Source: Chloroflexota bacterium
GTDB lineage: Bacteria; Chloroflexota; Anaerolineae; Anaerolineales; Villigracilaceae
DNA length: 64,000 nucleotides
Assembly: GCA_023459215.1 (NCBI GenBank)
Contig: JAEWVF010000018.1
Coordinates: 70,243 to 134,242 of the forward strand
Direction of reading: 5' to 3'
Position 1 is the stretch's first letter. Every line of letters begins with the position of its first letter. The position numbers were made by a program, and so were the translations under genes. Under the pieces are notes generated by a model. That model worked only from the letters and a program-made list of their open reading frames with translations, made no database searches and was not told the DNA's origin. Below are positions 17,615 through 61,930 of this stretch, one piece after another.

Positions 17615-17617
17615 AGC

Positions 17618-18709: not shown

Positions 18710-18721
18710 TGGAGGCTCTTT

Positions 18722-19627: not shown

Positions 19628-19633
19628 CATCAA

Positions 19634-46588: not shown

Positions 46589-46595
46589 TGGGATT

Positions 46596-47963
46596 TCAGA
46601 TTTGAGATTTTTGATTGGGGGGTTGTCGGCGGGTAATTTTCATCAGCACGCCAGGGCGCGGCTCAAGGGTTGCGCCCATGTGCGGATGGATTTCGTGCGG
46701 GTTGATCGGCTGGAAGTCGAAGTTTTGCAGCAAATAGCTGACCACAATCCGCGCTTCGGCCTGGCCGAAGGCGGCCCCGATGCAGGCGCGCGGCCCACCG
46801 CCAAAGGCGATGAAACTCATGGGCGGGGGTGCCTGCCCTGCGCTTCCCTGCGGGGTGCGGCCTCGTGCGAAGCGCTCGGGCTGGAACTGGTCCGGGTTGT
46901 CCCAGATGGCCGGGTCGCGCTGGGTCAGGTAGATCGAGTAGAACATGCGCGCGCCAGCCGGAATGGTCTCGCCTTCGCCGAAGGTCACATCCTTGGCGAC
47001 CATGCGGTTGCCGATGTGGATCGGCGGATATAGGCGCAGGGATTCCTTGATGACCTGGTCGAGCAGCGGCGGATTTTGGCCGGGTTCGCTCTCGTCCAGG
47101 TCGCGGACGAGGGCGGCGTAAACGTCCGGGTGTTGGCCGAGCAGGGCAAAAATCCAGGCCAGCAGGGCGGTGGAGGTGTCGTGGCCGGCAATCAGCATGG
47201 TCAACATCTGATCGCGGATGGTTTTGTTGGGCAGGCCGGCATCGATCAGGTGTTGGAGCAGGTCGTTATTTGGGGATTCGATATTTGAGTCTTCGATATT
47301 GGAACCTCGAGTATTCGAATATCGAATATCGAGGTTCGCTTTCCGACGTTCAGCGATAATTTCATAGAGATAAGTATCCAGGGCTTGCAGGTGCTTTTTG
47401 TAGCCGGGGCGCGGGATGCGCCGCCACAAAATCCATGCGCCGGGTGAGATGTAGTCGATGGCTTTCAGGATCGGCGTCCAGATGCGTGGCAGGTCGTCCC
47501 AGGCGTCGCGGCTGAACAGGGCCTGGATGATGATCAGCAGGGCGATTTTGCGGCCCTCGACCAGCATATCCACCGTCTGACCGTCCTGCCAGGCCGCGCT
47601 GACCCGTTCGGTCTGTTGGCGCATCATCCCGGCGTAGCCGGGCAGCTTACCGGGATGCAGCGACGGTTCCATCAACTTGCGATATTGGTCGTGTTCTTCA
47701 CCGTCGGTGACGAGCACGCCCCGGTCGAGCAAATCCGTCACCGGGTCCTGGTTGCGCCACAGGAACTTATCCCGTTCGGTAATGAGCACCTTGCGCGCCG
47801 CATCCGGCCCGTAAACGATATAAGGTTTGAATCCCGGCAGCGGCACCTGGAAGAAACGCCCAACCCGCTCGGCCATCACGCGCAGCGGCCCAAGCGGGGA
47901 TTTTTCAGCGAGAAAGGCTTTCAGCACAGCCAGGCCGGTTTGGGGATCAGATTCAGCAGGCAT
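46596..47963 (-). CDS. Cytochrome P450 (carotenoid-cluster associated), carrying an in-frame ~20-aa repeat-encoded insertion
   Basis: FGGGPRACIG heme loop, ExxR; LDIRYSNTRGSNIEDSNIES inserted between ERR and DLLQ helices. Confidence 0.85.
   Translation of the reverse strand: MPAESDPQTGLAVLKAFLAEKSPLGPLRVMAERVGRFFQVPLPGFKPYIVYGPDAARKVLITERDKFLWRNQDPVTDLLDRGVLVTDGEEHDQYRKLMEPSLHPGKLPGYAGMMRQQTERVSAAWQDGQTVDMLVEGRKIALLIIIQALFSRDAWDDLPRIWTPILKAIDYISPGAWILWRRIPRPGYKKHLQALDTYLYEIIAERRKANLDIRYSNTRGSNIEDSNIESPNNDLLQHLIDAGLPNKTIRDQMLTMLIAGHDTSTALLAWIFALLGQHPDVYAALVRDLDESEPGQNPPLLDQVIKESLRLYPPIHIGNRMVAKDVTFGEGETIPAGARMFYSIYLTQRDPAIWDNPDQFQPERFARGRTPQGSAGQAPPPMSFIAFGGGPRACIGAAFGQAEARIVVSYLLQNFDFQPINPHEIHPHMGATLEPRPGVLMKITRRQPPNQKSQI
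47276..47340. repeat. Palindromic element copy (tcgatatt / cgaatatcga units) embedded in-frame in P450 CDS
   Basis: cctcgagtattcgaatatcgaatatcgagg; shares cgaatatcgag..cgcttt with 45772-45795. Confidence 0.7.
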
Positions 47964-48484
47964 CAGCGCAACTCCTTGGTAAAGTACAGCACCAGGTCGT
48001 CATCGACCGGCACGGATTGGCCGTACTGGACGGGCTGGCCGCGCGAGTACAATCCGCGCCCATCGGGGATATAGCCGCGTTTGGCGTACATGCGCTGGGC
48101 CGAGCCGTAATCGGCGGTCATGCCGACGCCCAGGCCGACGATAGCGCTGCGGGCGGTGGCCCGCTTTTCGGCCTCATCCATCAGGGCTGCGCCGATGCCC
48201 TGGCGGCGGAATTTGGGTAGCACGTTGAAATCGACGATTTCGGGGATGTTTTGCTCGCGGAAAGGCGGATAGTGCGACTGCCAGCAGATGGTGACGTAAC
48301 CGGCGAATTCCAAAATCGGCAGATTTTGAACTCCAGAATGAGCGACCATGACCACCCGCTGGCCTGCTTCCTGCTCCGAGAGATATTTCTCATACTGCGA
48401 GGCGGGTTTATCCCAGCCGAGTTGAGCGAAAGCGGCAGCAATCGAGGCGATGTCGGCGGGTTCTAGCAGGCGAATGATATGCAT
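47963..48484 (-). CDS. GNAT-family N-acetyltransferase
   Basis: RRQGIGAALM acetyl-CoA binding motif. Confidence 0.75.
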   Translation of the reverse strand: MHIIRLLEPADIASIAAAFAQLGWDKPASQYEKYLSEQEAGQRVVMVAHSGVQNLPILEFAGYVTICWQSHYPPFREQNIPEIVDFNVLPKFRRQGIGAALMDEAEKRATARSAIVGLGVGMTADYGSAQRMYAKRGYIPDGRGLYSRGQPVQYGQSVPVDDDLVLYFTKELR

Positions 48485-48501
48485 ACGAAGACTGAAAACT
48501 T

Positions 48502-49917
48502 TCAGGGATTTATCCAGACGGGTGGAAAGAAAAGAATTCCATCTTTCATATTTATTTTGTTCATAATTGCCCGGGTTGAAATATCGACAATAAGTAGCCT
48601 ATCAAATTCTGAAAAATAAAAATACTTTGAGTCCGGACTCCATTTCCCTTGGTTTACCCTTGTGCCATTTCGAAAAATGATATTTCCATCCCAATCCCCG
48701 ATAACAAGTTCGTTTTCAATAGTTGCCCAAAAATTTTTGTCCGGAGAAATTATAGGCAAAGATTCGAGATATGGAGTTCTTAAAATTTCCCCGCTCGGAA
48801 AAATTTCCAAGGATGAAGAGTTCCATTGAGATGCTATAAAAGCCCCAATCTCTGGATACCAGGAAATTTCTCTTACAATATCGTCTGAAATTTTTTTAGG
48901 TTCCTGTCCAATTTCAAAAAGATATAATCCATCTTGTTGGTTTTCGTAGTTATTAAGTGTGCACAGGAGAAATTGCTTAGTCGAATTGCTATAAGCACCA
49001 GTAAAAAAGTTGCTGAATAAGAGTGTTGTTTCGCCTGAGTCGATATTGACAATATCCAAGCTAATATATTCACCGGGCAAAGCATAATAATAGCCGCTTA
49101 GGTAATTTGACATGTCAATCCAGCCAAATGTTTCTTCAATTCCATACACTTCCCAATCATAAAGTTTGCGGGTTTCTGAGCCGTCAGGTGCTGTTACCCA
49201 GACAGAGAGCATATCATATCCCCTGCCATTGGCCCCGAAATTAAGTTTTTTAGCGGCGCCGTGAACAATATAGCGTCCATCTGGTGTCCAACGTAATGAT
49301 ACTGCCTGGGTTAAGCCATCGGTCAGGCGCTTAATGTTATCATTTTCCATTGAATATACATAAACATCCGATGTTGGGCCATCTATGGACGCGGTAAAAG
49401 CCAAGTATTTTCCATCGGGCGACCATGCTAATTTTCCTAATGCCGAGAAAGTATCCATCAGTTCTGGCGGTTTGTTTTCAAGTGCTGGATATAAACCAGT
49501 TGTGATATATGTGATAGTTTTGTCTACGCCGGGAGTGATACGGATTTTTAAAGTAACATCTTTTGTCGGTGCTCCATTATTCTTGCTTTCGATATATGCA
49601 ATTACGTTGTTGAATGTTGCAATATCAAGTAAATAAAAATCTTTGGATTGTGCGGGTAGAAACGGTGAATATCCAGATCCATCTGGATTTATGATGAAAG
49701 GCATTATTCGATCAGGTATTAATACCCAAGAACCTGTTGTAGATACTGGTGTAATATCTGGGAATGATGGAGTAATTGTGGATGTTGCAGATGAAGAGTT
49801 GGCTATGATGGTTTCTTGTGGTTGAAAAACCGTTGTCACCGGGGTATTTTCTGTTGCCGGACCAGCACAACCTGCCAGCAGGAGAAGTAATCCGAAAATA
49901 TGGTTGAACTTTTTCAT
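48502..49917 (-). CDS. Lipoprotein with PD40/TolB-like beta-propeller repeats, low-GC island
   Basis: Lipobox LLAGC, S/T-rich linker, WSPDGKY / WTPDGRY / WSPDSKY repeats; AT-rich. Confidence 0.6.
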   Translation of the reverse strand: MKKFNHIFGLLLLLAGCAGPATENTPVTTVFQPQETIIANSSSATSTITPSFPDITPVSTTGSWVLIPDRIMPFIINPDGSGYSPFLPAQSKDFYLLDIATFNNVIAYIESKNNGAPTKDVTLKIRITPGVDKTITYITTGLYPALENKPPELMDTFSALGKLAWSPDGKYLAFTASIDGPTSDVYVYSMENDNIKRLTDGLTQAVSLRWTPDGRYIVHGAAKKLNFGANGRGYDMLSVWVTAPDGSETRKLYDWEVYGIEETFGWIDMSNYLSGYYYALPGEYISLDIVNIDSGETTLLFSNFFTGAYSNSTKQFLLCTLNNYENQQDGLYLFEIGQEPKKISDDIVREISWYPEIGAFIASQWNSSSLEIFPSGEILRTPYLESLPIISPDKNFWATIENELVIGDWDGNIIFRNGTRVNQGKWSPDSKYFYFSEFDRLLIVDISTRAIMNKINMKDGILFFPPVWINP

Positions 49918-49924
49918 GGTTTTT

Positions 49925-51316
<1,392 letters not shown>

Positions 51317-51383
51317 GGTTGGGGTTGGTAGGTTGGTAAATTGGGGATTGGCGGTTATGAGCGATAACTCTCCAATTACCAAA

Positions 51384-51959
51384 CTATTCCAGAAGTTCGG
51401 GCAGAGTCGGTTCGGCGATTTGCTCCGGGAAGAGTTTGTGCATAACGGTGATGACCTTGTATGCAAAGTTCGGATCGAAGGTGTAGAAGCCCTCGTACAT
51501 ACGCGACTCACCTTTCAATCGTTCTGCCGAGTTGATTTCTTCGGCCAACAGAGTCATGTGGATGCCCGGCCCATAAGCGATGACGAACCAGTAGTTTTCG
51601 AGTGGGGTGCCGGTGGTATCCACGGCGGTGGTGCGGGCAAAGCCAGGCAGGGGCGCATCGGGCACGCCGTACAGATACAGACCGGTCGATGCCAGGGCAA
51701 CTTGCGTGTAGCGTTCCTGCTGATCGGCCACGCGTGAAAAATACTGGAAGGAAACGTGTGTTTCCGAGATGCCGGGGCTGGCGACGATGGCATCTTCGAT
51801 CATATGGCTGATCTCGACCATGCCATTGACGGTGAAGATGTAGCGAAAATTAACCCGGTTCAGGTCTTCGCGCGTGGCGCTTTTCAGAAACGCTTCGGTG
51901 CGCGGCGGGAACAGCGGCATCAGTTTGCCAAAGAAGTTGTGCAGGATATCTTTTTCCAT
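51384..51959 (-). CDS. Stand-alone DICT-like sensor-domain protein
   Basis: Homologous to N-terminal domain of adjacent cyclase (FQxFS..RY.Q.A..Y..G..D.P.P..L..WF.....P.....LL..EI). Confidence 0.5.
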   Translation of the reverse strand: MEKDILHNFFGKLMPLFPPRTEAFLKSATREDLNRVNFRYIFTVNGMVEISHMIEDAIVASPGISETHVSFQYFSRVADQQERYTQVALASTGLYLYGVPDAPLPGFARTTAVDTTGTPLENYWFVIAYGPGIHMTLLAEEINSAERLKGESRMYEGFYTFDPNFAYKVITVMHKLFPEQIAEPTLPELLE

Positions 51960-52047
51960 AAGGTTTCCTCCTGATTAGAAAGCTGGAAAATTAAAGGTTG
52001 ATGTTTGTTCGTGCTATTGGCTTGGCGCCCTTGCAAATCGCTGATGC

Positions 52048-53373
52048 TCAAGCTTCCTGTTCCGCCTCTTGCATTTCTTCAAGGGCTTCGAACTCGGCGC
52101 TGTACATGCGCTGATAGCCCTTACCCTTGACCTGCACTTCGCGGCCCAGGCAGCGGATGGGCCGGTTGATGGCCTGGTAGGTGGGTTCGTCGACGCTGAT
52201 GCCGTTAATCGGCGCAAGGGCTTGCAGGCGGCTGGCCATGTTGACCGCGTCGCCGATGATGGTGATTTCACGCCGCGAGGCCGAGCCGAGTCGGGCGATG
52301 ACGCATTCCCCGCTGGCGATGCCGATGCGGGTATTCAGCACGGTTTCGCGGTGAGCGATTTGTTGCTTGTTGAAACGCGCCAGATGGCGCTGCATGGCGA
52401 TGGCGGCGTTGACCGCATCCTTGGGTTCGCTGAAGAAAGCCATCAGGCCGTCGCCCAGGAATTTGTCGATGTCGCCATTGTGTTCATAAACGATGGTGGC
52501 CAGCAGGTTGAAATAGCGATTCAAGTTCCTGGTCAGTTCCAGGGTATCGTTGCGCTCGAAAAGCGGGGTGAATTCGTGAATGTCAGTGAACAGGATGGTC
52601 AGGTTGCGCCGTTCAGGCGCAGTCGGCTCATTTTCTGCCGGGTCATCCGGCAGGTTCTGGCTGTCCTGCCAGGCATGCCGCGAAATCATGCTGCGCACAA
52701 TCCCTTCCATGCGCTCCAGCGCCTGGGTGCGGTTTTGCAGATTGCCATACAGGGCCGAAAGCTGGCTCTGGGCGCGATCCATGTACCCGGCGAATTGGTT
52801 CAGGTAGGTGTTGAGCGGATTCGCCGGCTCGAAGGGCGCGGGGACAAGCGGCGGGGCGGGCAGCCCGAGCGCCTGGTGCAGTAAACTGACCGCCGGCTGG
52901 ACGATGTGGTCTTCCATGCTGATCAGGCCCTGGTAGAAACGTCCGCGGCCAAACTGGTTGTCGCGAACCGAAGCCGCATAGCGCCCGCGAATCTCGTGGG
53001 TCAGCAGAGCAATATTGAAGCGCGGATGGGCAAAGAGGATGAACCATTCCTGGACGAGCGGCGCGTTGGCTTCCAGGGCGACATATTCCAGCTTTGGAAT
53101 TTCAGGCGCGGGGCTGTCAGCCTGTCCAAAGATATAGATTTTTTTGCAGCGCCCAGCCAACTGCCGAAAGCGGTCGGCCTGCGGCAGGAAGGCGGAAAAA
53201 CGCTGGAATCCGGCGAAAAAGATTGAATCCAGGCCGTGGCGCAGCACCGTTTCTTCGATGCTGTGGCTGACCGCCAGCAGGGAGGCCACCGACGAGGTGC
53301 GCGTGGCGTTCAGCCCCGATGGCTGGCTCGCATTCAGCGTATAGAGCGAGAGAGTCTGGATGTCGGGTTGCAT
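52048..53373 (-). CDS. Class III adenylate/guanylate cyclase with N-terminal DICT-like sensor domain
   Basis: CHD motifs LFTDIHEFT, FLGDGLMAFF, IGIASGECV; N-terminal domain paralogous to 51384-51959. Confidence 0.8.
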   Translation of the reverse strand: MQPDIQTLSLYTLNASQPSGLNATRTSSVASLLAVSHSIEETVLRHGLDSIFFAGFQRFSAFLPQADRFRQLAGRCKKIYIFGQADSPAPEIPKLEYVALEANAPLVQEWFILFAHPRFNIALLTHEIRGRYAASVRDNQFGRGRFYQGLISMEDHIVQPAVSLLHQALGLPAPPLVPAPFEPANPLNTYLNQFAGYMDRAQSQLSALYGNLQNRTQALERMEGIVRSMISRHAWQDSQNLPDDPAENEPTAPERRNLTILFTDIHEFTPLFERNDTLELTRNLNRYFNLLATIVYEHNGDIDKFLGDGLMAFFSEPKDAVNAAIAMQRHLARFNKQQIAHRETVLNTRIGIASGECVIARLGSASRREITIIGDAVNMASRLQALAPINGISVDEPTYQAINRPIRCLGREVQVKGKGYQRMYSAEFEALEEMQEAEQEA

Positions 53374-53377
53374 GGTT

Positions 53378-54601
53378 TTAGTGTGATATCCCGGTGGGGG
53401 CCGGGGCCGATTTTGCGCGGATTTCCGCCGCAATCGGGTGGCCGTAAATGACGCGCCAGACGTAAACGCTCAAAACCGCCAGCATCGCTGCGCTGAAGAA
53501 ACCGGGCGCGGATGTCCCGGCCCAGCCGAGCAAAGCGCCGCCCAGGGTGGGGGCGATGGCGCGCGTCAGGCTTTCGACCGAAGCTGAAAGGCCGAGAATG
53601 CCGCCGATTTCCTGCGGTTCGACCGCTTTGGTCAGGGTGGAAGCCAGGACGGTATTCAGCACGCCACCGGCGATTGCGGTGGGAGTTAGAACGGCGATCA
53701 GCCAGAAGACGGATGGCGAAAGGGCCCATCCGAGCAGTGAAATGGCCATTACAACCACCGAAACGGCGATCAGTCCATCTTCACGAAAACGGCGGGTAAG
53801 CTGGCCAATCAGGAATCCCTGTACAATGACCGAAAGCACGCCAACGTAGGCGAGAATCAGGCCGGTTTCCTGGGCGCCCAATTCGAATTTTTTCAGGGCG
53901 TACAACGAGAAGATGGTTTGGAAGATGGCAAAAGGCAGCCCGAAGAAGAAGCGGGTAATCAGCAGGGAACCGCTGAAGGGGCGCTTGAGCGCGTCCAGCA
54001 GGGCCGACAAGGTAAAGCCAGGCTGCTTTTCAGGCATGCTGGCCCGTTTTTCGGGAGTAAGCGATTCGGGCAGCCAGAAAGCGACCAATCCCAGGTTGAT
54101 CAGGGCCAGGCTGGCGGCCAAAAAGGCCGGGACGGCGTAGCCCCACTGGCTCAGGAATCCGCCGGCGGCCGGGCCGATGATGAACCCGATCCCGAAAGCG
54201 GCCCCGATCATGCCCAGGCCCATCGAGCGGTTTTTCTCGTCGGTGACATCCGAGATGTAAGCCTGGGCCACGCTCAGATTGCCGCCGGTGAAACCGTCCA
54301 GGATGCGGCTGGCGAAGAGCATCCACAAGCTGTTGGCAAACCCGAGCAGCAGGAACCCCAGGAAGGTGCCGAAAATGCTGACCAGCAGGATCTGGCGGCG
54401 GCCAAAACGGTCTGAAAGGCGGCCCAAAACGGGCGCGCCGACCAGTTGCATGGCGGCATAGGAGGCAACCAGCAGTCCGGTAACGAAATCGCTGGCCCCG
54501 AACGTGCTGGCATAGTATGGCAGCAGCGGCAAAATCAGGCCAAAGCCGAGCAGGTCGACGAAAACGACGAAAATAACGGGGAAAAGGCGTTTTTTATCCA
54601 T
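53378..54601 (-). CDS. MFS transporter
   Basis: 12 TM helices, GRLSDRFGRR motif. Confidence 0.85.
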   Translation of the reverse strand: MDKKRLFPVIFVVFVDLLGFGLILPLLPYYASTFGASDFVTGLLVASYAAMQLVGAPVLGRLSDRFGRRQILLVSIFGTFLGFLLLGFANSLWMLFASRILDGFTGGNLSVAQAYISDVTDEKNRSMGLGMIGAAFGIGFIIGPAAGGFLSQWGYAVPAFLAASLALINLGLVAFWLPESLTPEKRASMPEKQPGFTLSALLDALKRPFSGSLLITRFFFGLPFAIFQTIFSLYALKKFELGAQETGLILAYVGVLSVIVQGFLIGQLTRRFREDGLIAVSVVVMAISLLGWALSPSVFWLIAVLTPTAIAGGVLNTVLASTLTKAVEPQEIGGILGLSASVESLTRAIAPTLGGALLGWAGTSAPGFFSAAMLAVLSVYVWRVIYGHPIAAEIRAKSAPAPTGISH

Positions 54602-55076
54602 GAAGTTTTTCTTGGTTGAACTCTTTTACAACGGCCAGGATTTCCTCGTTGGCAGGAATATCGGCGGCGTCGTGGCCGTAATGCACGAAGCGCACAATGC
54701 CCTGCTTGTCGATGGTCACCTGGGCGGGCATGCGCCCAAACTTGAAGATTTTGATTTGCTGTCCATACAGCTTTAGAACGCTGTGGGTTGGGTCGGGCAG
54801 GCCGATGAAGGGCAGGTCATTTTTTTGCCAGTAGTTTTTGAACGCGCTGGTATCCTCGGGGCCGAGCACCAGCACGACCGTATCTTCGGCAACAAATTTG
54901 TCATGATCCTGGCGCAACTGCGCCATGTGCCGTTGGCAGAACGGTCAGAAAAAACCGCGATTGAAGACCAGCAGTACGTTTTTCTGACCTTTGAAGTCAG
55001 AAAGGCGGATCTGCTGGCCGTTGAAATCGGCCAGGCTGAAGTCGGGTGCGGGTTGGTTGAGTGCGACGCGGCTCAT
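54594..55076 (-). CDS. Candidate selenoprotein: AhpC/TSA (redoxin)-family peroxiredoxin-like protein with in-frame TGA (Sec) in UxxC motif
   Basis: MSRVALNQPAPDFSLADFNGQQIRLSDFKGQKNVLLVFNRGFF-TGA(54945-54947)-PFCQRHMAQL...; the TGA sits exactly where the redox Cys of FxRGxxCPxC is expected; stem-loop ggcgc-aguu-gcgcc about 20 nt downstream. Confidence 0.55.
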
Positions 55077-55077
55077 C

Positions 55078-55404
55078 TCAGGCGTTCCTTCCCAACCAGA
55101 ATTTTTTCCAGTCGCCGCGGCTGGCGTACAGATTAATCAGGGCATACAGGCTGACGGCGAAAGCGCCCAGGGTCATGACGGCGATAATCCACAATACCGT
55201 TGCGGGGATGGATTTTTCGCGGTAAACGATCCAGGCTGAAAAAAGCGTAAAGCCGACATACAAATCGACTAGCGAGACGATCCCCCACGGCATGGAGGTC
55301 AGCACTGCGCCCTCGGCGGCGAAATCGCCCACGACGAAGCCATAGGCAATCACCGCGGTCATGGCGATTACGCCCAACAGGGCGATGGTTTTGGCGAGTT
55401 TCAT
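55078..55404 (-). CDS. Small polytopic membrane protein (4 TM)
   Basis: 108-aa hydrophobic ORF tightly following the Prx-like gene. Confidence 0.5.
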   Translation of the reverse strand: MKLAKTIALLGVIAMTAVIAYGFVVGDFAAEGAVLTSMPWGIVSLVDLYVGFTLFSAWIVYREKSIPATVLWIIAVMTLGAFAVSLYALINLYASRGDWKKFWLGRNA

Positions 55405-55406
55405 GG

Positions 55407-56255
55407 TTAGCGAATCCTTTTCTTGCTGATGGCAACGAAACCCAGCGCGCCAATGCCCAGGTGCGCACCCAAAACGGGCGTAATCTGCACTGGCACAGGC
55501 TCATCTTCCTCCGGAAAGTAAGCGCGCACGGCTTCCTGCAAGGCCTCGGCCTCTTCCTGGATGCCGGCGTGGACCACTGCCAGGCGCTCAAAGGGCGCAT
55601 ACTGGTTGAGCCAGTCCAGCAATTGGGCGGTGGCCTTTTTCTGGGTGCGGGTGCGGTGGACGGTCGGTTTGCCCTGGTGCATGTGCAGCAGCGGTTTGAT
55701 TTTCAGGAATTCGCCGATATGGGCCACGGCGCTGTTCATCCGTCCGCTGCGGCGCAGGTATTCGAGCGTTTTCAGCGAGGCAAAAACATAGCTGCGGGTC
55801 ATCTGCTCCTTGAGTTGCAGCAGGATGTTCTCGATGGTTTCCCCGGCGCGGGCCAGTAGGGCCGCTTTCTCGACCAGGAAGCCCGTTCCCAGGCTGAGTT
55901 GGCTCGAGTCGAGTACCGTTACCGGGATGCGGGTAAATTCCTCGGCGGCCTTGCGGGCGACATTGATGGTTGCGCTCAAACTTTCAGAAATATGGATCGA
56001 CAGGATGGCTTTTGCGCCCTCATCGGCCAGGCGTTCGTAAATCTGGCGGAACATTTCCGGGCTGGGGGCGGCGGTCTTTGGGAAAGGATTCATCTCGGGC
56101 AGTTGGCGATAAAACTCCTCGCGGGAGATGTCAACGCCATCGACCAGGGCTTTTTCGCCAATATGGATATTGAGCGGCAGGACGGTGATACCCAAATCCT
56201 GTACGGTTTCATCGGGCAGATCGCAGGTGCTGTCGGTGACAATTCGAATGCTCAT
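55407..56255 (-). CDS. DegV-family fatty-acid-binding protein (paralog 2)
   Basis: IRIVTDSTCDLP N-terminus. Confidence 0.85.
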   Translation of the reverse strand: MSIRIVTDSTCDLPDETVQDLGITVLPLNIHIGEKALVDGVDISREEFYRQLPEMNPFPKTAAPSPEMFRQIYERLADEGAKAILSIHISESLSATINVARKAAEEFTRIPVTVLDSSQLSLGTGFLVEKAALLARAGETIENILLQLKEQMTRSYVFASLKTLEYLRRSGRMNSAVAHIGEFLKIKPLLHMHQGKPTVHRTRTQKKATAQLLDWLNQYAPFERLAVVHAGIQEEAEALQEAVRAYFPEEDEPVPVQITPVLGAHLGIGALGFVAISKKRIR

Positions 56256-56293
56256 AAGTGCTGTCTTTCTCCCTTTTTTGGGCGTTGCGAACG

Positions 56294-57328
56294 TTAATCG
56301 CTACTGGCCGAATTTTCGGCTATGGCAGTTGGTTTGCGAAAACGGTCAACGATCCAGATACCCAGCGCGACCAGTCCGGCCATGAGAAAAGCGACCAGGT
56401 ATTCGATGATCGGGATGCGAATAACCTCATTCAGATATTCCCATCCTTTCCAATTGTATACCGCCAGCGCCGCAAGAATATAACCAAGTCCTATCAACCA
56501 GCGGGTAAGTTTGCTCCAGCCAACGCCGTGCATTTGGGTGATGACGAACATGCCCAGGAAGCCGAAGAAGAACATCGTCCAGATGCCGGAGCCTTGCAGG
56601 ATGGCCACCATTGTTCCGTGGAACAGAACCGCCACCTCCTGGGTCAGCATCCACCACTTGTTGACGTGAATACGCGTCAGGAAGAGCGAGCCTTGCAGCA
56701 GCAGGAAGAACATGTACAGGAAGCCGAGTAAATGCCCGGATGTGTTCACCATCGGGTGGAACCAGAAGGTGTAGACGGTGGCCCAGGCGAACAGGTAGCC
56801 GTGATATTTGCGCGCAAAATCGATCACGCGGGTTGAAATGGGGGCTTTTTTGCCAAAGAACATGCCGCGGCGTTTGTTTTCCATGATCAGGATGGCGCAC
56901 AACATCAGGATGACTGAACCTTGCGAACTCCAAACCGGCGTATCCTGGGCCAGCCCATCGTACCAGATGTGGCTCTGGATAAAGTGCAGGACGATGAAGA
57001 GCGCGTTCAATCCCAATGCCCAGATATTAACCATGTGCAGGCCTTTAGCATATTTCTGCACGCGGGTTTGGGCGTAGTAAATCAGCCCCCAGAAGGCGAT
57101 CTGGTGCAGGGCATACAGGCCCCAGTAGCTCAGGCGCGTCCAGAAGGTTACAGCTTCAACGGGGAGTTTCCACTCGTACCAGAGCGGTCCCTGGTCGGGC
57201 AGGATTGGGACGGCGTTCAGCCGTTCACCGGCCAGCCAGATCAGCAGGGTGAACGCCAGCGAGAAGGCGATGCCGCCCCACAGGGCGATTTTGTTGGAGC
57301 GTGGGTCTGAAAGGTCGATTTTGTTCAT
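56294..57328 (-). CDS. Polytopic membrane protein of unknown function (carotenoid-cluster associated; CruF-like hydratase is one possibility)
   Basis: 344 aa, about 9 TM helices rich in His/Trp; 23 nt downstream of carH-like gene. Confidence 0.4.
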   Translation of the reverse strand: MNKIDLSDPRSNKIALWGGIAFSLAFTLLIWLAGERLNAVPILPDQGPLWYEWKLPVEAVTFWTRLSYWGLYALHQIAFWGLIYYAQTRVQKYAKGLHMVNIWALGLNALFIVLHFIQSHIWYDGLAQDTPVWSSQGSVILMLCAILIMENKRRGMFFGKKAPISTRVIDFARKYHGYLFAWATVYTFWFHPMVNTSGHLLGFLYMFFLLLQGSLFLTRIHVNKWWMLTQEVAVLFHGTMVAILQGSGIWTMFFFGFLGMFVITQMHGVGWSKLTRWLIGLGYILAALAVYNWKGWEYLNEVIRIPIIEYLVAFLMAGLVALGIWIVDRFRKPTAIAENSASSD

Positions 57329-57351
57329 GGTTTCACCTATATGATTTCTGT

Positions 57352-58683
57352 TCAGGCCAGGAATTTGTTGACGGTAGCGGTGTTCAACCAGCGGCTGATG
57401 ATGCGCCCTTGTTCGGGCATGTGTTGGTCAATGGCTTCGGCAAATGTTTTCAGGTAGTCAACAACCACCTGCGCCGGCATCCGGTTGACCTTGATCAGCG
57501 TTTCGAGCCAATCCAATTCCGAATCGATGTAATGCAGGTTGCCCAGGTGCAGGGCGGCAATAATATTGTCGCCCAGGAACTGATTGGCATTGGAAATGTG
57601 CTCGGGGTTGGCGCTGAAAGGCCGCAGGCGTTCGTTGACGGCATTTTCGATCAATGGCCGTTTAATCACGAAGCTTTTCAGGGTTTGCACATATTCGGTC
57701 GGCAGCGGAGCGATTTTGGGCGTTTCCGGGCGGCTGGCCAGCAGCATTTCAATTTTTTCGATGCCCGCTTCCAGTGTATCGCCCAGGTAATGACCGGGGA
57801 TGTGAGCTGTCAGGCCGGGCTGCATGATAAATATCCTGCCGCCGTACACCACGGTTGCGCCGTGGGCCGAGAGCAGGCTGGCGGTTTGCTGCAAGCTGGC
57901 GGCGGTGCGCAGTTGTTGTGACGTTAAAACCACCAGGCTGGGTTGGACCGCTGTCAGGGTTTCCTCGAAGCGTTCGGCTGGCACGTTTGAGCCAAGGTAA
58001 ATCACATTCAGTCCGCGGCGGCGCAGCAGGATGGTCAGGAGCAGGCCGCTGAAGTTGTGCCACTCATTCGGTGGGCAACCTACCAGAATGGTGTGCGGCC
58101 GTCCCGGGGCTGGCGAAGCGGCAATCAGCGCATCCAGGCGGCGCATGGCCAGCCCTGAAGCAAAATGCTCCTGCTGAACGCTGGCGCGGTTCTCATACCA
58201 GAGCATCCCAATTTCGGTCAGGCCGCGGGCGAGCAGGTCGACGCAAACGGTTTCAACCGGGTACAGGCTGAACGCCTGGTTCAAGGTTTGTTCGGCGGTT
58301 GTTTCGTTGAAGTTCAGGCAGGCGGCCAGCCATTGGGCGCGCAGCGCATCCAGCCCGGTTTCGGGCGGCAGGTAAATTGCCTGGTTGGCCAGGTTGAAGC
58401 TGGTCGGGCGCGGCCCGGGCATTGTTTCCAACGGATCTTTGCCGTTGACGGCTTGTTCGCGCCACATTTCCACGGCGCGCGAAATCGACAGACCCTCGTT
58501 TTGGCGCGCGATCAGCCATTTGATCAGGGCAATGTCACGTTCCGAGTACAGGCGATGACCGCCTGGTGTGCGCTGCGGATTGGGCAGCCCATAACGGCGT
58601 TCCCAGGCGCGCAAGGTATCTGCGCTTAATCCAGTTTCCTTCAAGACAGCTTTCAGGTTGAAAATCGGGTTCGTGCTCGGCAT
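57352..58683 (-). CDS. carH: CarH/LitR-type MerR-family transcriptional regulator with cobalamin-binding domain and C-terminal extension
   Basis: MerR HTH (LKETGLSADTLRAWERRYGLP), W-x9-EH (WYENRASVQQEH) four-helix-bundle motif, Rossmann B12 motif EWHNFSG. Confidence 0.7.
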   Translation of the reverse strand: MPSTNPIFNLKAVLKETGLSADTLRAWERRYGLPNPQRTPGGHRLYSERDIALIKWLIARQNEGLSISRAVEMWREQAVNGKDPLETMPGPRPTSFNLANQAIYLPPETGLDALRAQWLAACLNFNETTAEQTLNQAFSLYPVETVCVDLLARGLTEIGMLWYENRASVQQEHFASGLAMRRLDALIAASPAPGRPHTILVGCPPNEWHNFSGLLLTILLRRRGLNVIYLGSNVPAERFEETLTAVQPSLVVLTSQQLRTAASLQQTASLLSAHGATVVYGGRIFIMQPGLTAHIPGHYLGDTLEAGIEKIEMLLASRPETPKIAPLPTEYVQTLKSFVIKRPLIENAVNERLRPFSANPEHISNANQFLGDNIIAALHLGNLHYIDSELDWLETLIKVNRMPAQVVVDYLKTFAEAIDQHMPEQGRIISRWLNTATVNKFLA

Positions 58684-58757
58684 AGTTCTTTCAATGGTAC
58701 TCGCGCAGGAACAAAAGGCCAGGTGTTTTATGCCTTTTGTTCCTGGCTTGTGAGAAA

Positions 58758-59177
58758 TTAATCCCCGGTCGCGGGCGACAATTTATACCCGGCGACGGTT
58801 AAACCTTTGAATTCTTTCAAAATGCGTTCGGTGGTCAAGCGCGCCGAGAGCAGCACAATTGGCAGGCCGGTGCCGGGATGGGTGGATGCCCCGGCAAAGT
58901 ACATATTCTTGAACTGCGCGTGGCGGTTCTGCGGGCGCAGGAAACCCACCTGCCAGAAGTTGTGGCTCAGGCCAAAAGCGGCGCCTTTTTCAAGGTTAAA
59001 ACGCTCTTTCCATTCCTTTGGCGTGTAGCTAATCTCAAACTTGATGTGTTCGCGCAAATCGCTGATGCCCATTTCCTTTTCAAGGCGGGCAAAAACCGTT
59101 TCACGGGCGCGATTGACCATGCAGAAAAACTTGTTTCCACTGCTCCCGTCAATATTGTTAAGTGCCACTAAGCGCAC
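58758..59177 (-). pseudogene. crtI: Phytoene desaturase (crtI) C-terminal remnant, N-terminal ~350 codons missing
   Basis: Matches only the C-terminal ~130 aa of CrtI (YFAGASTHPGTGLPIVLLSA); upstream sequence switches abruptly to AT-rich foreign DNA. Confidence 0.6.
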
Positions 59178-59357
59178 TTTTTATTTTGCGCAGCAATTGA
59201 GACATAAAAATTATAGTTTTTTTATGCTTCTTTGTCAAGATTTTGTCGATTTGTTCTTTTAATATCTAGTCAAAACATCGACAATTCGAACAAAGAAAAC
59301 CAAAGAAAATATAGTATTATTAATAATGTTTGTTTGAGTGTTTGACGGAGTAATTAA

Positions 59358-60464
59358 ATGGGTAGACTAAGACCAGAAGCTCGAAGGAAATACGAAAAAG
59401 AACTTTTAGCAACAATGGATATTGCTAAAAGCAATGTTCTTTCGTATATGTTAATAGAGAAAATTGCTCACAAATTTAATAAAAAGCCTACATTGTTTAT
59501 GACAACACTGATAAGTTTTTTATTAGCTGTTCTTGTTTTTCTTATTTCTCTCTCTGTAGATTTTATTTTTGGTAAGCCTATAAGCCTTGATCAAATCATT
59601 GGGTTAGCAATATCTGCTTTCCTGGCTGGTGCATTTATCTGGGTTCTAAAAGTCGCGGAAGATATAGCTTTTTTGGGAAACATGAAAGACATTCTGGCTT
59701 TGCCTGCCGAAGAAGACGGTTTTCAAAAACTTAATGATTGGTTTAGGGAAATTTTTCGATTTAAACCTCAATTTATTTGGGCATTGAGTTTTGGTATATG
59801 TTCGGTTATCAGTGCTTGGTTCCTGTTTAGAGGCTTTCATCGTCTAGCTTCTAGTTTTGGTATATATATTGGTGTTTTTATTGTGTTTTTTATTATTGGG
59901 ATTGGAGCACATGCCGCATTATCTTTGCCATCCTTAGTTAAAGTTGCTAGTAAAACTCGCCTAAATCTCTACGCATTTGATCCTGTAAAATCTAGAGCAG
60001 TCAAGATCGCAAACAAAGCGTATGGATTAATAACGCTGGGTACCGGTTTTGTTGCCACTGTTGTTATGATGATGCTGTTTATTCTCAACCCTTGGGGAGA
60101 ACAAAGGACTTTTTGGATCGCAGCCGGATGGCTGGTGATTGTTTGGGGAGTTACTCTATATTCTTTCATTTATCCTCATTATTATGTTACTCAGGGTATT
60201 TTGTTTGAGAAGCAGAATCAACTCGAAATACTAGATCAGCAGATCGAAAAGCTTAGCGAACGCTTGGCTTCTTTGTCTCCAGATGAAATTTCGCGGCTCG
60301 AGAAGTATATTGAATTACGAGAAAAAGTATTTCTGTCAAAAAATACATCTATAGATATTTCTTCTTTTTGGAATTTTATAACATCCATGGTTCTTCCGGC
60401 GGTATCATTTGTTCTTGGCGGTCTAGATGTAATTAAGCAGGCCTTTCCTGAATTATTTATTTAG
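59358..60464 (+). CDS. Polytopic membrane protein of unknown function encoded in a low-GC island
   Basis: 368 aa, AT-rich codon usage, about 6 TM helices and C-terminal coiled-coil; own terminator. Confidence 0.55.
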   Translation: MGRLRPEARRKYEKELLATMDIAKSNVLSYMLIEKIAHKFNKKPTLFMTTLISFLLAVLVFLISLSVDFIFGKPISLDQIIGLAISAFLAGAFIWVLKVAEDIAFLGNMKDILALPAEEDGFQKLNDWFREIFRFKPQFIWALSFGICSVISAWFLFRGFHRLASSFGIYIGVFIVFFIIGIGAHAALSLPSLVKVASKTRLNLYAFDPVKSRAVKIANKAYGLITLGTGFVATVVMMMLFILNPWGEQRTFWIAAGWLVIVWGVTLYSFIYPHYYVTQGILFEKQNQLEILDQQIEKLSERLASLSPDEISRLEKYIELREKVFLSKNTSIDISSFWNFITSMVLPAVSFVLGGLDVIKQAFPELFI

Positions 60465-60485
60465 TAATCTTGGTTGTGTTTTTGG

Positions 60486-60523
60486 AAGCGGCAGATGGAA
60501 TGATTTCCATCTGCCGCTTTTTG
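60486..60523 (+). terminator. Rho-independent terminator of island gene
   Basis: gcggcagatggaa-tgat-ttccatctgccgc + tttttg. Confidence 0.8.
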
Positions 60524-60982
60524 TGTTACCAATAGAGTATGTGTGCAAAACATTGACAAAAACTATAAATCCTGTACAATATGTATACAATACGAAGTTA
60601 TTCATAAAACTTTTATTTTCGAATTAGTAGTTCATGTGGTTTCGAGCGTTTTTTGCGAAGCAAACTCCTGGTAAATGAGCAATACCTATCCTCATAGGGT
60701 AGGCTAGCTGAGCACAGACCTCCTTTCTCATACATTATCACATTTTCATCGGGGAACGACTTCACTATTGACATTTACCAAAATAGGTTAAGTTGGCCCT
60801 ATTCGCTATCTTGTTTATTATGAGCAAGATTGAGATACTTCAACCCTACCAGTGATGTTTTGGATGTTTTTTGCTCAAAAAAGTGCTCTGTTGGGGTCGC
60901 AGACTTAATTAACTTATGTAAACGTCAATAATTAATATGATAATCCTATATACTTCTGGTTTCATTCTTTGCTGGAGGCATA

Positions 60983-61930
60983 ATGCAAACAACATGGGAA
61001 CACAAGCTTATCTCACTTGCTGGACGCATTCCTCACCCATCCAATCGTCCAGTTTTTTCTTATTGGGCTGGAGATGTTTCTCTACAAAAAGCCTATAACT
61101 TGGCCAGAAAAATTACATCCTATCGCAACAAGTCCTTGTTTATAGTTTCTGGTTTATTTCCTGAAGAAAAACACTCTGCGATTTTTGCTCTTTATGCATT
61201 TTATACTACAATAGATGATATTGTGGATGAAGGCTCGGTTGTTGGCCGCGAGGTGGAATTGGATTACTGGCGCGGGGTTGTCCAGGGGCTGGTCCCGCCG
61301 CGCGCGGGCGACCTGGTAGCCCAGGCCTGGGCGGATACGCGCTCGCGCTATCACATCCCCCCGCGCTATGCCTTGCAGTTGATCGATGGCGTGGCCCGCG
61401 ACCTTACCCAGTCCCGCTACAAAACTTTTGACGACCTGGCGACCTATTGCTATGGAGTCGCCTCGACCGTTGGCTTGATGAGCATGTACATTGTCGGTTT
61501 CAAATCCAATGAAGCGCTGCCTTATGCCATTAAATTGGGCGTGGCCTTGCAGATGACCAATATCCTGCGCGATATTGGCGAAGATTTCCGCAATGGCCGG
61601 GTTTACCTGCCCAAGGATGAGTTGAAAGCCTTTGGCATTAGCGAAGCCGACCTGGCCCGCGGCATTGTCAACGACGCCTGGCGCAACTTCATGCGCTACC
61701 AGATCGATCGCACCCGCAAACTTTACGCCGAAGCCGAAAAAGGCATCGCCTTTCTTGAGCGCGATGGCCAGTTGGCGATTGGCGCCTCGTCCAATTTCTA
61801 CCAGGGTATCCTGGATGTGATCGAGGCCAATGATTATGATGTATTTTCCAAACGCGCCAGTCTCACCGCCTGGGGCAAGGTTAGCCGCATCCCTGCGTTA
61901 TGGTTCAAACTTGCCGCGCTGCCTCAATAG
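60983..61930 (+). CDS. crtB: Phytoene synthase
   Basis: YTTIDDIVDE and MTNILRDIGEDFRNGRVYLP aspartate-rich motifs. Confidence 0.9.
   Translation: MQTTWEHKLISLAGRIPHPSNRPVFSYWAGDVSLQKAYNLARKITSYRNKSLFIVSGLFPEEKHSAIFALYAFYTTIDDIVDEGSVVGREVELDYWRGVVQGLVPPRAGDLVAQAWADTRSRYHIPPRYALQLIDGVARDLTQSRYKTFDDLATYCYGVASTVGLMSMYIVGFKSNEALPYAIKLGVALQMTNILRDIGEDFRNGRVYLPKDELKAFGISEADLARGIVNDAWRNFMRYQIDRTRKLYAEAEKGIAFLERDGQLAIGASSNFYQGILDVIEANDYDVFSKRASLTAWGKVSRIPALWFKLAALPQ

What the first reader, a model, noticed from the sequence alone, without database searches (positions are those of the whole stretch)
54594..55076. Candidate selenocysteine-containing peroxiredoxin-like gene (UxxC) with in-frame TGA
On the minus strand, an ORF starting at 55076 encodes MSRVALNQPAPDFSLADFNGQQIRLSDFKGQKNVLLVFNRGFF, then TGA at 54945-54947, then continues in frame as PFCQRHMAQLRQD... 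to 54594. The TGA falls exactly at the first Cys of the redoxin FxRGxxC-P-x-C active site, giving a U-P-F-C motif. That is the classic pattern of Sec-containing thiol oxidoreductases. A GC hairpin (ggcgc-aguu-gcgcc) lies about 20 nt downstream and could serve as a bacterial SECIS. Without Sec decoding the N-terminal 43 aa and the C-terminal 110 aa would be separate, non-functional fragments.
Basis: partly seen in the sequence, partly recalled or inferred. Interest (0 to 1): 0.75.

Follow-up and report, generated by a model that had tools for sequence, protein, structure and literature searches.

The report
Selenocysteine peroxiredoxin-like gene with SECIS
A small redox-enzyme gene in an Anaerolineae-type bacterium almost certainly reads an in-frame UGA stop codon as selenocysteine at its active site; this kind of selenoprotein is already known, and gene callers routinely split or truncate it.

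Summary
On the minus strand, 55076..54594 is one 160-codon AhpC/TSA-fold gene interrupted only by TGA at 54947..54945. The TGA sits at the first Cys of a thioredoxin-like CxxC motif, giving U-P-F-C.

- **TGA conservation:** all 80 orthologous genome loci fetched (59-75% protein identity, several phyla by record title) carry TGA at this codon. Both flanks are under purifying selection.
- **Hairpin:** 20 nt downstream lies GGCGC-AGUU-GCGYC. Its synonymous sites are frozen in 84/84 sequences: Ala always GCG, Gln always CAG, Leu always TTG. Other invariant residues use every synonymous codon. Two distant Cys homologues checked lack the hairpin.
- **Sec/Cys pairing:** more distant homologues have Cys at the UGA position.
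- **Machinery:** one orthologous locus has tRNA-Sec, selB and selA 7-10 kb away.
- **Genetic code:** TGA is an ordinary stop elsewhere in the window.

The gene fits the published "Prx-like thiol:disulfide oxidoreductase" selenoprotein family (pfam00578, UxxC), so it is a new member of a known kind.

Not shown: Sec machinery in this organism's own genome, and any biochemistry.

A side lead is that in Anaerolineae the gene sits in a CarH-like (B12 photoreceptor) and carotenoid gene neighbourhood.

The parts
54594..55076 (-). Full-length selenoprotein gene: 160 sense codons including Sec44, plus a TAA stop. It has a Prx-like (AhpC/TSA) fold with a U44-P-F-C47 redox motif. Databases currently call it as a 43-aa ORF plus a 110-aa 'peroxiredoxin Q/BCP'.
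   Evidence: sequence, ORFs. (one collinear AhpC-TSA hit, residues 7-130, E 8e-24). (database calls of 43 aa and 110 aa). (84 orthologues, both halves conserved in frame).
54945..54947 (-). In-frame UGA, the proposed selenocysteine codon (residue 44).
   Evidence: TGA is present in 80/80 genome loci L007-L086 and in L001-L006. It is TGC in the variant P0009 and TTA in P0012. It aligns with Cys of CxxC in distant homologues and with the first Cys of ResA CEPC.
54936..54938 (-). Cys47 codon (TGC). This is the second residue of the UxxC motif and occupies the position of the peroxidatic Cys of peroxiredoxins. It is the inferred resolving partner of Sec44.
   Evidence: alignment to AhpE, Bcp1 and S. 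tokodaii Prx: Cys47 aligns with C_P, Sec44 with the conserved Thr. Invariant in 84/84 sequences, with TGC in 82.
54908..54927 (-). SECIS-like hairpin, nt 21-40 counted from the U of UGA. The core stem is GGCGC/GCGCC (54924-54920 with 54915-54911). The tetraloop AGUU is at 54919-54916, with G at nt 30. The lower pairs U23-A38 and C21-G40 flank an A22/G39 mismatch in this sequence.
   Evidence: alignment A3, 80 sequences; nt 26-35 invariant. (89.7% of cells paired against 21-53% for slid registers; G25-C36 63, G-U 16, A-U 1; C22-G39 in L035). (frozen synonymous sites). (hairpin absent in two Cys homologues). (unique in window).
54912..54941 (-). Zone of suppressed synonymous variation (codons 46-55). 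The third-position entropy is the minimum for the whole gene. It includes an invariant G at the third position of the variable codon 49 (54930).
   Evidence: five-codon mean third-position entropy is 0.14-0.20 bits at codons 49-55, against a gene-wide mean of 1.42 bits. (column 18 is G in 80/80 sequences; a possible 3-bp helix 10-12/18-20).
55078..55404 (-). Context: upstream DUF1475 gene. Its TGA stop lies 1 nt before the selenoprotein ATG, which suggests translational coupling and shows that TGA is a normal stop here.
   Evidence: Found next to the orthologue in 17/81 loci.
53378..54601 (-). Context: downstream MFS transporter gene. Its ATG overlaps the end of the selenoprotein gene by 8 nt.
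   Evidence: Found next to the orthologue in 10/81 loci.
57352..58683 (-). Context: CarH/LitR-like regulator (MerR HTH, B12-binding_2 and B12-binding domains). It lies near the head of the co-directional gene string that contains the selenoprotein gene.
   Evidence: Within 7.4 kb of the orthologue in 19/81 loci.

Best explanation
The region 55076..54594 (minus strand) is a single gene for a selenoprotein of the Prx-like thiol:disulfide oxidoreductase type.

Proposed decoding: UGA44 is decoded as selenocysteine by SelB-GTP carrying Sec-tRNASec. SelB is tethered to the hairpin that lies 20 nt downstream inside the coding sequence (stem GGCGC/GCGCC, loop AGUU).

Proposed chemistry: the product is a 160-residue AhpC/TSA-fold protein. 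Its selenolate sits at the N-terminal cap of the active-site helix, which is the attacking position of a thioredoxin-like CxxC. It reacts with an oxidised substrate (a disulfide, or possibly a peroxide). This forms a selenenylsulfide with Cys47, which a thioredoxin-type reductant then regenerates.

Shown here:
- The gene is one unit.
- The UGA and the hairpin are under strong selection.
- Sec/Cys pairing exists at the CxxC position.
- The fold is Prx-like.

Inferred, not shown:
- SelB binding.
- Actual selenium insertion in this organism.
- Substrate and reductant.
For: 1. **One gene.** There is a single collinear AhpC-TSA match across the UGA.
2. **UGA conserved.** TGA is at the same codon in all 80 genome loci returned by a scan whose search patterns did not favour TGA, and in 6 further contigs. 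Protein identity to the window is 59-99%, median 65%. By record title the loci are 46 Chloroflexota-type, 14 Actinomycetota-type, 14 deltaproteobacterial/Syntrophia-type, plus Leptospirales, Spirochaetota, Planctomycetaceae and Eubacteriales MAGs.
3. **Purifying selection on both sides.** Invariant residues upstream (A10, P11, L25, R40) and downstream of the UGA use all their synonymous codons.
4. **RNA-level constraint just after the UGA.** Codons 52-54 are GCG, CAG and TTG in 84/84 sequences and codon 55 is CGC or CGT only. TTG is a minority Leu codon at five of the six other conserved Leu positions in the gene.
5. **Variation preserves pairing.** G25 pairs with C36 or U36. L025 has A25-U36 and L035 has C22-G39. 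89.7% of cells are paired, against 21-53% in slid registers.
7. **Cys homologues.** Distant homologues have CxxC at the aligned position (P0123, P0125, P0126, P0127, P0130, P0186 and others). In them the MAQLR peptide varies, and the two checked at DNA level lack the hairpin. The TGC variant P0009 differs from the Sec forms at this codon by one base and still carries the hairpin.
8. **Machinery near an orthologue.** L064 has tRNA-SeC, SelB (GTP_EFTU, SelB-wing_3 and SelB beta-barrel domains) and a SelA fragment 7-10 kb from the gene.
9. **TGA is a normal stop here.** It ends 17 of 47 long ORFs in the window.
10. **Active-site position.** An AlphaFold model of the Cys variant (pLDDT 94) has a Prx/BCP-like fold (TM 0.82 to Bcp1) and also matches ResA. 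Residue 44 sits immediately before helix 45-56. ResA CEPC aligns with UPFC.
11. **Published family.** The literature describes exactly this kind of protein: Prx-like, pfam00578, UxxC (PMC1088965, PMC2398784, PMC9312934, PMC13188914).
Against: - No tRNA-Sec, selA, selB or selD was found in the window. About 26 smaller ORFs were not scanned. The rest of this organism's genome could not be reached.
- Only one of 80 orthologous loci has the machinery nearby.
- The hairpin is small. Its single-sequence folding z-score is only -1.47.
- Classic covariation is thin, because the core never varies. There are two double-sided changes, each in a single sequence, and 37 of 500 shuffles reach the observed score.
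- No Rfam family matches.
- The best NCBIfam model (SelL-related redox protein) scores 82 bits, below its cutoff of 120.
- The structure model is of a 63%-identical Cys variant, not of the window protein.
- There is no experimental evidence of selenium incorporation for this family. The 2026 review lists it as 'predicted with high confidence' (PMC13188914).
Confidence: 0.9

Rival explanations
1. The UGA is decoded, but not as selenocysteine. Possibilities are Cys inserted by a SelB-dependent tRNASec-like Cys tRNA, near-cognate Trp or Cys read-through, or a reassigned UGA (genetic code 4 or 25).
For: Sec machinery was not demonstrated in this genome. Some gene callers translated the codon as Trp. 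Unusual tRNASec-type species are reported in Chloroflexi and Actinobacteria (PMC5389517).
Against: TGA terminates 17 of 47 long ORFs in the window, including the gene immediately upstream, so the code is not reassigned. The W calls are artefacts, since the underlying codon is TGA. The aligned residue in homologues is Cys within CxxC, which is the classic Sec/Cys pair, and not Trp or Gly. A conserved SECIS-type hairpin and an adjacent tRNA-SeC (anticodon tca), selB and selA in L064 point to the standard pathway.
Confidence: 0.05
2. Two separate genes, as currently annotated: a 43-aa peptide and a 110-aa protein starting at Met51.
For: Gene callers output exactly these two ORFs in many assemblies. 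Met51 is nearly invariant.
Against: The split would cut a thioredoxin fold through its active site and strand the invariant motif FNRGxxU-P-F-C. No Shine-Dalgarno-like sequence was seen by eye before Met51. In L035 that codon is CTG. The two parts are always adjacent, in frame and separated by exactly one TGA in 86 loci. The near-invariance of ATG51 is explained by its place in the lower stem of the hairpin.
Confidence: 0.02
3. Pseudogene or sequencing error: a nonsense mutation (TGC or TGT to TGA) in an ordinary CxxC redoxin gene.
For: A single base separates TGA from TGC. A TGC variant (P0009) and a TTA variant (P0012) exist.
Against: The same TGA appears in independent assemblies from many samples and phyla, with purifying selection on both flanks. 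The identical sequence was recovered on at least two independent contigs, ENA and JGI.
Confidence: 0.01

Closest known systems
Prx-like thiol:disulfide oxidoreductase selenoprotein family (Kryukov & Gladyshev 2004; 'Prx-like protein' in the Sargasso Sea study; 'Prx-like 1', pfam00578, UxxC in the GOS study)
   Same: It has a pfam00578/AhpC-TSA domain, a thioredoxin-like UxxC with Sec at the first position, Cys-containing homologues, and a SECIS-like hairpin just downstream (PMC1088965, PMC2398784, PMC9312934). The family is reported in Syntrophus and Geobacter (PMC1794560). The present family includes Smithella and Syntrophaceae MAGs.
   Different: Most members found here are from Chloroflexota MAGs. 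None of the selenoproteome papers read here names this family in Anaerolineae.
Sec-containing peroxiredoxin (Prx, TxxU)
   Same: Same fold and same Pfam family. A cysteine (Cys47) occupies the peroxidatic position.
   Different: In Sec-Prx the Sec replaces the peroxidatic Cys (TxxU). Here the Sec replaces the conserved Thr three residues earlier (UxxC), and the Pro of PxxxTxxC is replaced by Arg40.
ResA/TlpA-type CxxC thiol-disulfide oxidoreductases
   Same: ResA structures are among the top fold matches.
   Different: ResA is a membrane-anchored, extracytoplasmic cytochrome c maturation factor that uses Cys. This protein has no N-terminal extension that could hold a signal or anchor (the Pfam domain starts at residue 7), it uses Sec, and its overall fold is closer to BCP-type Prx (TM 0.82).
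SelL / SelL-related redox protein (NCBIfam NF040769)
   Same: This is the best NCBIfam hit (E 3.7e-23). It is a Prx-like redox protein family with Sec-containing members (SelL is called 'a Prx-like protein' in PMC2398784).
   Different: The score of 82 bits is below the family cutoff of 120, and only residues 8-105 match profile positions 1-99 of 173. It is therefore not a member by NCBI's criterion.
Bacterial SECIS elements (E. coli fdhF type)
   Same: A hairpin inside the coding sequence just 3' of the UGA, with a short G/C-rich stem and a small apical loop containing G followed by U (PMC4605307, PMC1088965).
   Different: The core stem is only 5 invariant bp plus 1-3 variable lower pairs. 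The loop G is 27 nt after the UGA, rather than about 20. There is no obvious bulged U. SelB binding is untested.

Membership tests
Prx-like thiol:disulfide oxidoreductase selenoprotein (pfam00578, UxxC) | AhpC/TSA (PF00578) domain | tested here: met
   PF00578, E 8.2e-24, 84 bits (cutoff 26), residues 7-130 against profile positions 2-123 of 124.
Prx-like thiol:disulfide oxidoreductase selenoprotein (pfam00578, UxxC) | In-frame UGA at the first position of a thioredoxin-like CxxC motif (UxxC) | tested here: met
   U44-P-F-C47 aligns with the CxxC of Cys homologues and with CEPC of ResA.
Prx-like thiol:disulfide oxidoreductase selenoprotein (pfam00578, UxxC) | Cys-containing homologues with Cys aligned to the UGA | tested here: met
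   (P0123, P0125, P0126, P0127, P0130, P0131, P0186, P0197, P0209, P0215, P0228, P0229, P0242). (TGC variant P0009).
Prx-like thiol:disulfide oxidoreductase selenoprotein (pfam00578, UxxC) | UGA and flanking coding sequence conserved among orthologues | tested here: met
   TGA in 86 loci, with synonymous variation and amino-acid conservation on both sides.
Prx-like thiol:disulfide oxidoreductase selenoprotein (pfam00578, UxxC) | SECIS-like stem-loop immediately downstream of the UGA | tested here: met
Prx-like thiol:disulfide oxidoreductase selenoprotein (pfam00578, UxxC) | Sec-decoding machinery (selA, selB, selC, selD) in the same genome | not testable with these tools
   The window has no tRNA and no sel gene among the 30 ORFs scanned. 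Orthologous locus L064 has tRNA-SeC, SelB and SelA nearby.
Prx-like thiol:disulfide oxidoreductase selenoprotein (pfam00578, UxxC) | Sequence orthology with the published example WP_010940744.1 (Geobacter sulfurreducens) | not tested
The only support is the matching description (PMC13188914, PMC9312934) and shared taxa (Syntrophaceae; PMC1794560).
Prx-like thiol:disulfide oxidoreductase selenoprotein (pfam00578, UxxC) | Selenium actually incorporated at the UGA | not testable with these tools
   This needs 75Se labelling or mass spectrometry.
Peroxiredoxin (PxxxTxxC active site) | Conserved Pro and Thr/Ser preceding the peroxidatic Cys | tested here: not met
   aligned to AhpE HPLAFTGIC, the window has NRGFFUPFC. 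The Pro is replaced by Arg40 and the Thr by Sec44. Cys47 aligns with the peroxidatic Cys.
Peroxiredoxin (PxxxTxxC active site) | Prx fold | tested here: met
   the model of Cys variant P0009 (pLDDT 94.2) has TM 0.82 to S. solfataricus Bcp1 (3drn), with many Prx hits.
NCBIfam NF040769 SelL-related redox protein | Score at or above the curated cutoff (120 bits) | tested here: not met
   82 bits.
Bacterial SECIS element | Hairpin with a 6-8 bp stem and a conserved G in a small apical loop about 20 nt 3' of the UGA (PMC4605307, PMC1088965) | tested here: met
   5 core pairs, invariant or wobble-compatible in nearly all sequences (one breaks in 3 of 80), plus up to 3 lower pairs. The tetraloop is AGUU with an invariant G 27 nt after the UGA. 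The distance is somewhat longer than the quoted ~20 nt.
Bacterial SECIS element | Binding by SelB and SelB-dependent recoding | not testable with these tools
   This needs a binding or reporter experiment.
Bacterial SECIS element | Match to a curated RNA family model | tested here: not met
   no Rfam SECIS family matches. Bacterial SECIS elements are poorly covered by sequence-based models, so this is weak negative evidence.

The most novel reading that the evidence does not exclude
In Anaerolineae this selenoprotein may belong to a light-responsive, B12-dependent (CarH/LitR-type) regulon, together with carotenoid biosynthesis and photolyase genes. That would make it a selenium-dependent defence against photo-oxidative damage in a non-phototrophic Chloroflexota lineage.

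A second open point is the 14-nt SECIS core. It is identical across at least five phyla at about 60-75% protein identity. This may mark horizontal spread of a gene-plus-SECIS cassette, with an additional RNA constraint starting only 7-10 nt after the UGA that is not explained by the standard hairpin model.
Probability: 0.25. Interest if true: 0.45.

Novelty: new member of a known kind. Interest (0 to 1): 0.3.

Why it matters
**Annotation.** The gene is mis-called in essentially every public record seen here. It appears as a 43-aa ORF plus a ~110-aa 'peroxiredoxin Q/BCP', as a truncated protein, or as a full-length protein with a false Trp at the active site. At least 234 species-representative genomes carry a relative. 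Correcting this changes the inferred selenium dependence of Anaerolineae and other abundant sediment, soil and wastewater lineages.

**SECIS biology.** The hairpin is frozen at the nucleotide level across phyla, which makes it a compact natural example for SelB-SECIS recognition studies and for selenoprotein gene finders.

**Overall.** It is not a new kind of system. The family and its UxxC logic have been in the literature since 2004-2005.

Tried and rejected
- **tRNA and Rfam scans of the window:** nothing found.
- **Pfam scan of 30 window ORFs for selA, selB or selD:** none found.
- **Scan of the window for other in-frame-TGA gene candidates:** only adjacent same-frame genes turned up, and no second selenoprotein candidate.
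- **tblastn of L064 SelB and SelA against all loci and the window:** no further copies.
- **tRNA scan of 84 loci:** tRNA-SeC only in L064.
- **Walking along the source contig beyond the window, using edge proteins:** one protein was not on record and the other hit only a 3 kb contig.
- **Structure prediction of the window protein with Cys at position 44:** The natural Cys variant P0009 was modelled instead.
- **Classic covariation test:** weak, because the core stem never varies. The argument rests on synonymous-site freezing and the Cys-homologue control instead.
- **Considered and rejected:** genetic code 4 or 25, pseudogene, and two separate genes (see rival explanations).
- **Circularity check:** selected sequences with a nucleotide pattern from the hairpin. 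The protein-pattern selections found the same loci. The only two loci missed (L025, L035) differ at first codon positions, not at synonymous sites.
Full report
**1. The observation**

The sequence is MSRVALNQPAPDFSLADFNGQQIRLSDFKGQKNVLLVFNRGFF, a TGA at 54947..54945, then PFCQRHMAQLRQD... to a TAA ending at 54594. The mechanical ORF list shows the two halves as a 43-aa ORF and a 110-aa ORF in the same frame. The hairpin ggcgc-aguu-gcgcc occupies 54924..54911 and begins 20 nt after the TGA.

With the stop replaced by Cys, the product matches Pfam AhpC-TSA as a single collinear stretch (residues 7-130 to profile 2-123, E 8e-24). The two fragments separately hit the N-terminal and C-terminal parts of the same profile.

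**2. What related sequences show**

A protein search returned two kinds of hit:
- Close relatives (75-100% identity) are all ~105-117 aa and start at Met51. These are calls truncated just after the TGA. They include the window's own product, annotated 'peroxiredoxin Q/BCP'.
- 'Full-length' proteins of 55-68% identity carry Trp at the TGA column.

Fetching the DNA of one of the full-length hits showed that the 'W' is a TGA. The locus on a 4.44 Mb NCBI contig has the same 44-aa plus 105-aa split around a TGA.

A scan of one genome per species found 234 relatives, and the best 80 were kept. The two peptide patterns used for that scan do not favour TGA. All 80 carry TGA at the same codon. By record title they are:
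- 46 Chloroflexota-type MAGs (Anaerolineae, Anaerolineales, Ardenticatenaceae, Caldilineaceae, Ca. Leptofilum)
- 14 Actinomycetota-type
- 14 deltaproteobacterial/Syntrophia-type (Smithella, Syntrophaceae)
- a few Leptospirales, Spirochaetota, Planctomycetaceae and Eubacteriales

The window's nearest relatives and its gene order match Anaerolineae loci.

Only two variants lack TGA. P0009 has TGC and P0012 has TTA. Both differ from TGA by one base and both keep the downstream hairpin sequence.

**3. Selection on the protein and on the RNA**

I built a codon alignment of 84 distinct TGA-containing genes, with 59-99% protein identity to the window and a median of 65%.

Invariant residues on both sides of the TGA (A10, P11, L25, R40, G72, P73, L101, G105, R115 and others) use all of their synonymous codons. 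Divergence is therefore saturating, and both halves are under purifying selection in one frame.

Codons 52-55 behave very differently:

| Codon | Residue | Codons used |
|---|---|---|
| 52 | Ala | GCG in 84/84 |
| 53 | Gln | CAG in 84/84 |
| 54 | Leu | TTG in 84/84 |
| 55 | Arg | CGC 68, CGT 16 |

TTG is a minority Leu codon at five of the six other conserved Leu positions in the gene.

Third-position entropy has its gene-wide minimum here. The five-codon mean is 0.14-0.20 bits at codons 49-55, against a gene mean of 1.42 bits.

The selection used a nucleotide pattern from the hairpin, which could have been circular. It was not. The protein-pattern selections found the same loci. The two loci it missed differ only at first codon positions.

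On the 80-sequence alignment A3, the named hairpin (nt 21-40 from the U of UGA) is paired in 89.7% of cells, against 21-53% when the 3' arm is slid by 1-3 nt. Its variation is pairing-compatible:
- G25 pairs with C36 (63 sequences) or U36 (16 sequences).
- L025 has A25-U36 and L035 has C22-G39. These are the only two double-sided changes.

Formal covariation is weak, because three pairs never vary. 37 of 500 shuffles reach the observed score. The single-sequence fold is unremarkable (z = -1.47).

The more telling control is the Cys homologues. In distant CxxC homologues the peptide at this place varies (MALLR, MDQLQ, MARLR, MIRLR). The two whose DNA I fetched have no hairpin there. The freezing is therefore tied to the TGA and not to the protein.

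The hairpin fits published general descriptions of bacterial SECIS elements:
- a 6-8 bp stem with a conserved loop G about 20 nt downstream (PMC4605307)

Here the loop is AGUU, with the G 27 nt after the UGA.

One thing remains unexplained. The constraint starts earlier than the hairpin. The third position of the variable codon 49 is G in 80/80 sequences, and Cys47 is TGC in 82/84.

**4. Decoding machinery and genetic code**

The window contains no tRNA. None of the 30 ORFs I scanned is a sel gene. I could not reach the rest of the genome.

Three indirect lines of support exist:
- One orthologous locus (L064, labelled Actinomycetes MAG) has tRNA-SeC (anticodon tca), a SelB (GTP_EFTU, SelB beta-barrel and SelB-wing_3 domains) and the end of a SelA 7-10 kb from the gene.
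- Selenoproteins and tRNASec are reported in Chloroflexi (PMC1794560, PMC5389517).
- Retention of the TGA plus hairpin in about 46 Chloroflexota MAGs would be hard to explain without decoding.

TGA is not reassigned. It ends 17 of 47 long ORFs in the window, including the gene whose stop lies 1 nt before this gene's ATG.

**5. Where the Sec sits and how the protein probably works**

Against solved peroxiredoxins (AhpE, Bcp1, S. tokodaii Prx), Cys47 aligns with the peroxidatic Cys. Sec44 aligns with the conserved Thr of the Prx TxxC motif, and Arg40 takes the place of the motif's Pro.

Against B. subtilis ResA, U-P-F-C aligns with C-E-P-C.

Distant homologues form a series:
- CxxC in most
- CxxT or CxxS in a few, which keep only the first Cys
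- T/SxxC in true Prx

An AlphaFold model of the natural Cys variant P0009 (63% identical to the window protein; pLDDT 94.2) places residue 44 directly before helix 45-56. This is the nucleophile position of thioredoxin-fold CxxC proteins. The model matches BCP-type Prx best (TM 0.82) and also matches ResA.

The likely chemistry is inferred, not shown. A selenolate attacks a disulfide, or possibly a peroxide. A selenenylsulfide forms with Cys47. A thioredoxin-type reductant then regenerates the enzyme.

**6. Comparison with what is known**

The GOS study lists 'Prx-like 1, pfam00578, UxxC' with 225 selenoproteins and 2,740 Cys homologues (PMC2398784). [quoted passage not shown] It is reported in Syntrophus, Geobacter and Desulfotalea (PMC1794560).

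The window gene meets every bioinformatic criterion of that family that I could test. I could not test orthology with the type example.

It is not a member of NCBIfam's SelL-related model by score (82 bits against a cutoff of 120). It fails the PxxxTxxC definition of a true peroxiredoxin.

Verdict: a new member of a known kind, probably from an Anaerolineae bacterium.

**7. Context**

The gene lies in a string of seven co-directional genes with gaps of 38 nt or less:

CarH/LitR-like MerR-B12 regulator > DUF6903 > DegV > DUF1475 > Sec-Prx-like > MFS > DICT-cyclase.

A phytoene synthase, a P450 and a weak lycopene-cyclase hit lie nearby. In the Anaerolineae-type subset of orthologous loci, several of these genes recur within 10 kb:

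| Neighbour | Loci (of 81) |
|---|---|
| CarH-like regulator | 19 |
| DUF1475 | 17 |
| DegV | 16 |
| Phytoene synthase | 13 |
| P450 | 11 |

L003 adds a photolyase and a phytoene desaturase. This suggests, but does not show, a role in a light-induced photo-oxidative stress response. In other phyla the neighbourhood differs.

**8. Scores**

The biology is established in kind, however. Interest is 0.3. Confidence that this is a genuine Sec-encoding Prx-like gene is 0.9.

Noticed in passing
window 45794-61930: This looks like a light/carotenoid-type gene neighbourhood. It holds a CarH/LitR-like MerR plus B12-binding regulator (57352-58683, -), a phytoene synthase (60983-61930, +), a cytochrome P450 (46596-47963, -) and a weak lycopene-cyclase hit (45794-46588, -). 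The same genes recur near the orthologue in Anaerolineae-type loci, and L003 also has a photolyase and a phytoene desaturase.
   Followed up: partly
window 59210-59238 (-): A perfect sigma-70 consensus (TTGACA, 17 nt spacer, TATAAT; 12 of 12) lies upstream of an unannotated 139-aa ORF (58758-59177, -; no Pfam hit; conserved in 13 related loci at about 71% identity) and the CarH-like gene. It may be the promoter of the gene string that contains the selenoprotein gene.
   Followed up: no
window 54930 (nt 18 after the UGA) and 54936-54941: The third position of the variable codon 49 is G in 80/80 orthologues although the amino acid varies. Cys47 is TGC in 82/84. The RNA-level constraint therefore begins 7-10 nt after the UGA, upstream of the hairpin. 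RNAalifold proposes only a weak 3-bp helix there.
   Followed up: partly
L064 17535-20476: An orthologous locus (MAG labelled Actinomycetes) has tRNA-SeC (17535-17631, -), SelB (17707-19926, -) and the 3' end of SelA (19943-20476, -) 7-10 kb from the Prx-like gene. A DegV gene lies immediately downstream of the Prx-like gene.
   Followed up: yes
L087 3001-3471 / L088; L089 1137-1610: Natural variants have TGC (Cys, P0009) or TTA (Leu, P0012) instead of TGA. Both still carry the intact hairpin sequence, so each is either a recent change or an error. The TGC variant sits next to a reverse-transcriptase (RVT_1) gene, a DSBA gene and a C_GCAxxG_C_C gene.
   Followed up: partly
protein database hits P0001-P0120, P0121-P0270: There are systematic annotation artefacts for this family. 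Short ENA and Logan contigs give Trp at the Sec position (TGA read with an alternative code). Many other calls start at Met51, or at Leu54, which is the TTG inside the hairpin.
   Followed up: yes
window 19634-27088 (+): A very large ORF (2484 aa). It was not examined.
   Followed up: no
window 4095-5735 (+) and 55407-56255 (-): A FakA-like fatty acid kinase subunit and a DegV-family (FakB-like) protein are both encoded in the window, about 50 kb apart. The DegV gene is in the same gene string as the selenoprotein gene.
   Followed up: no
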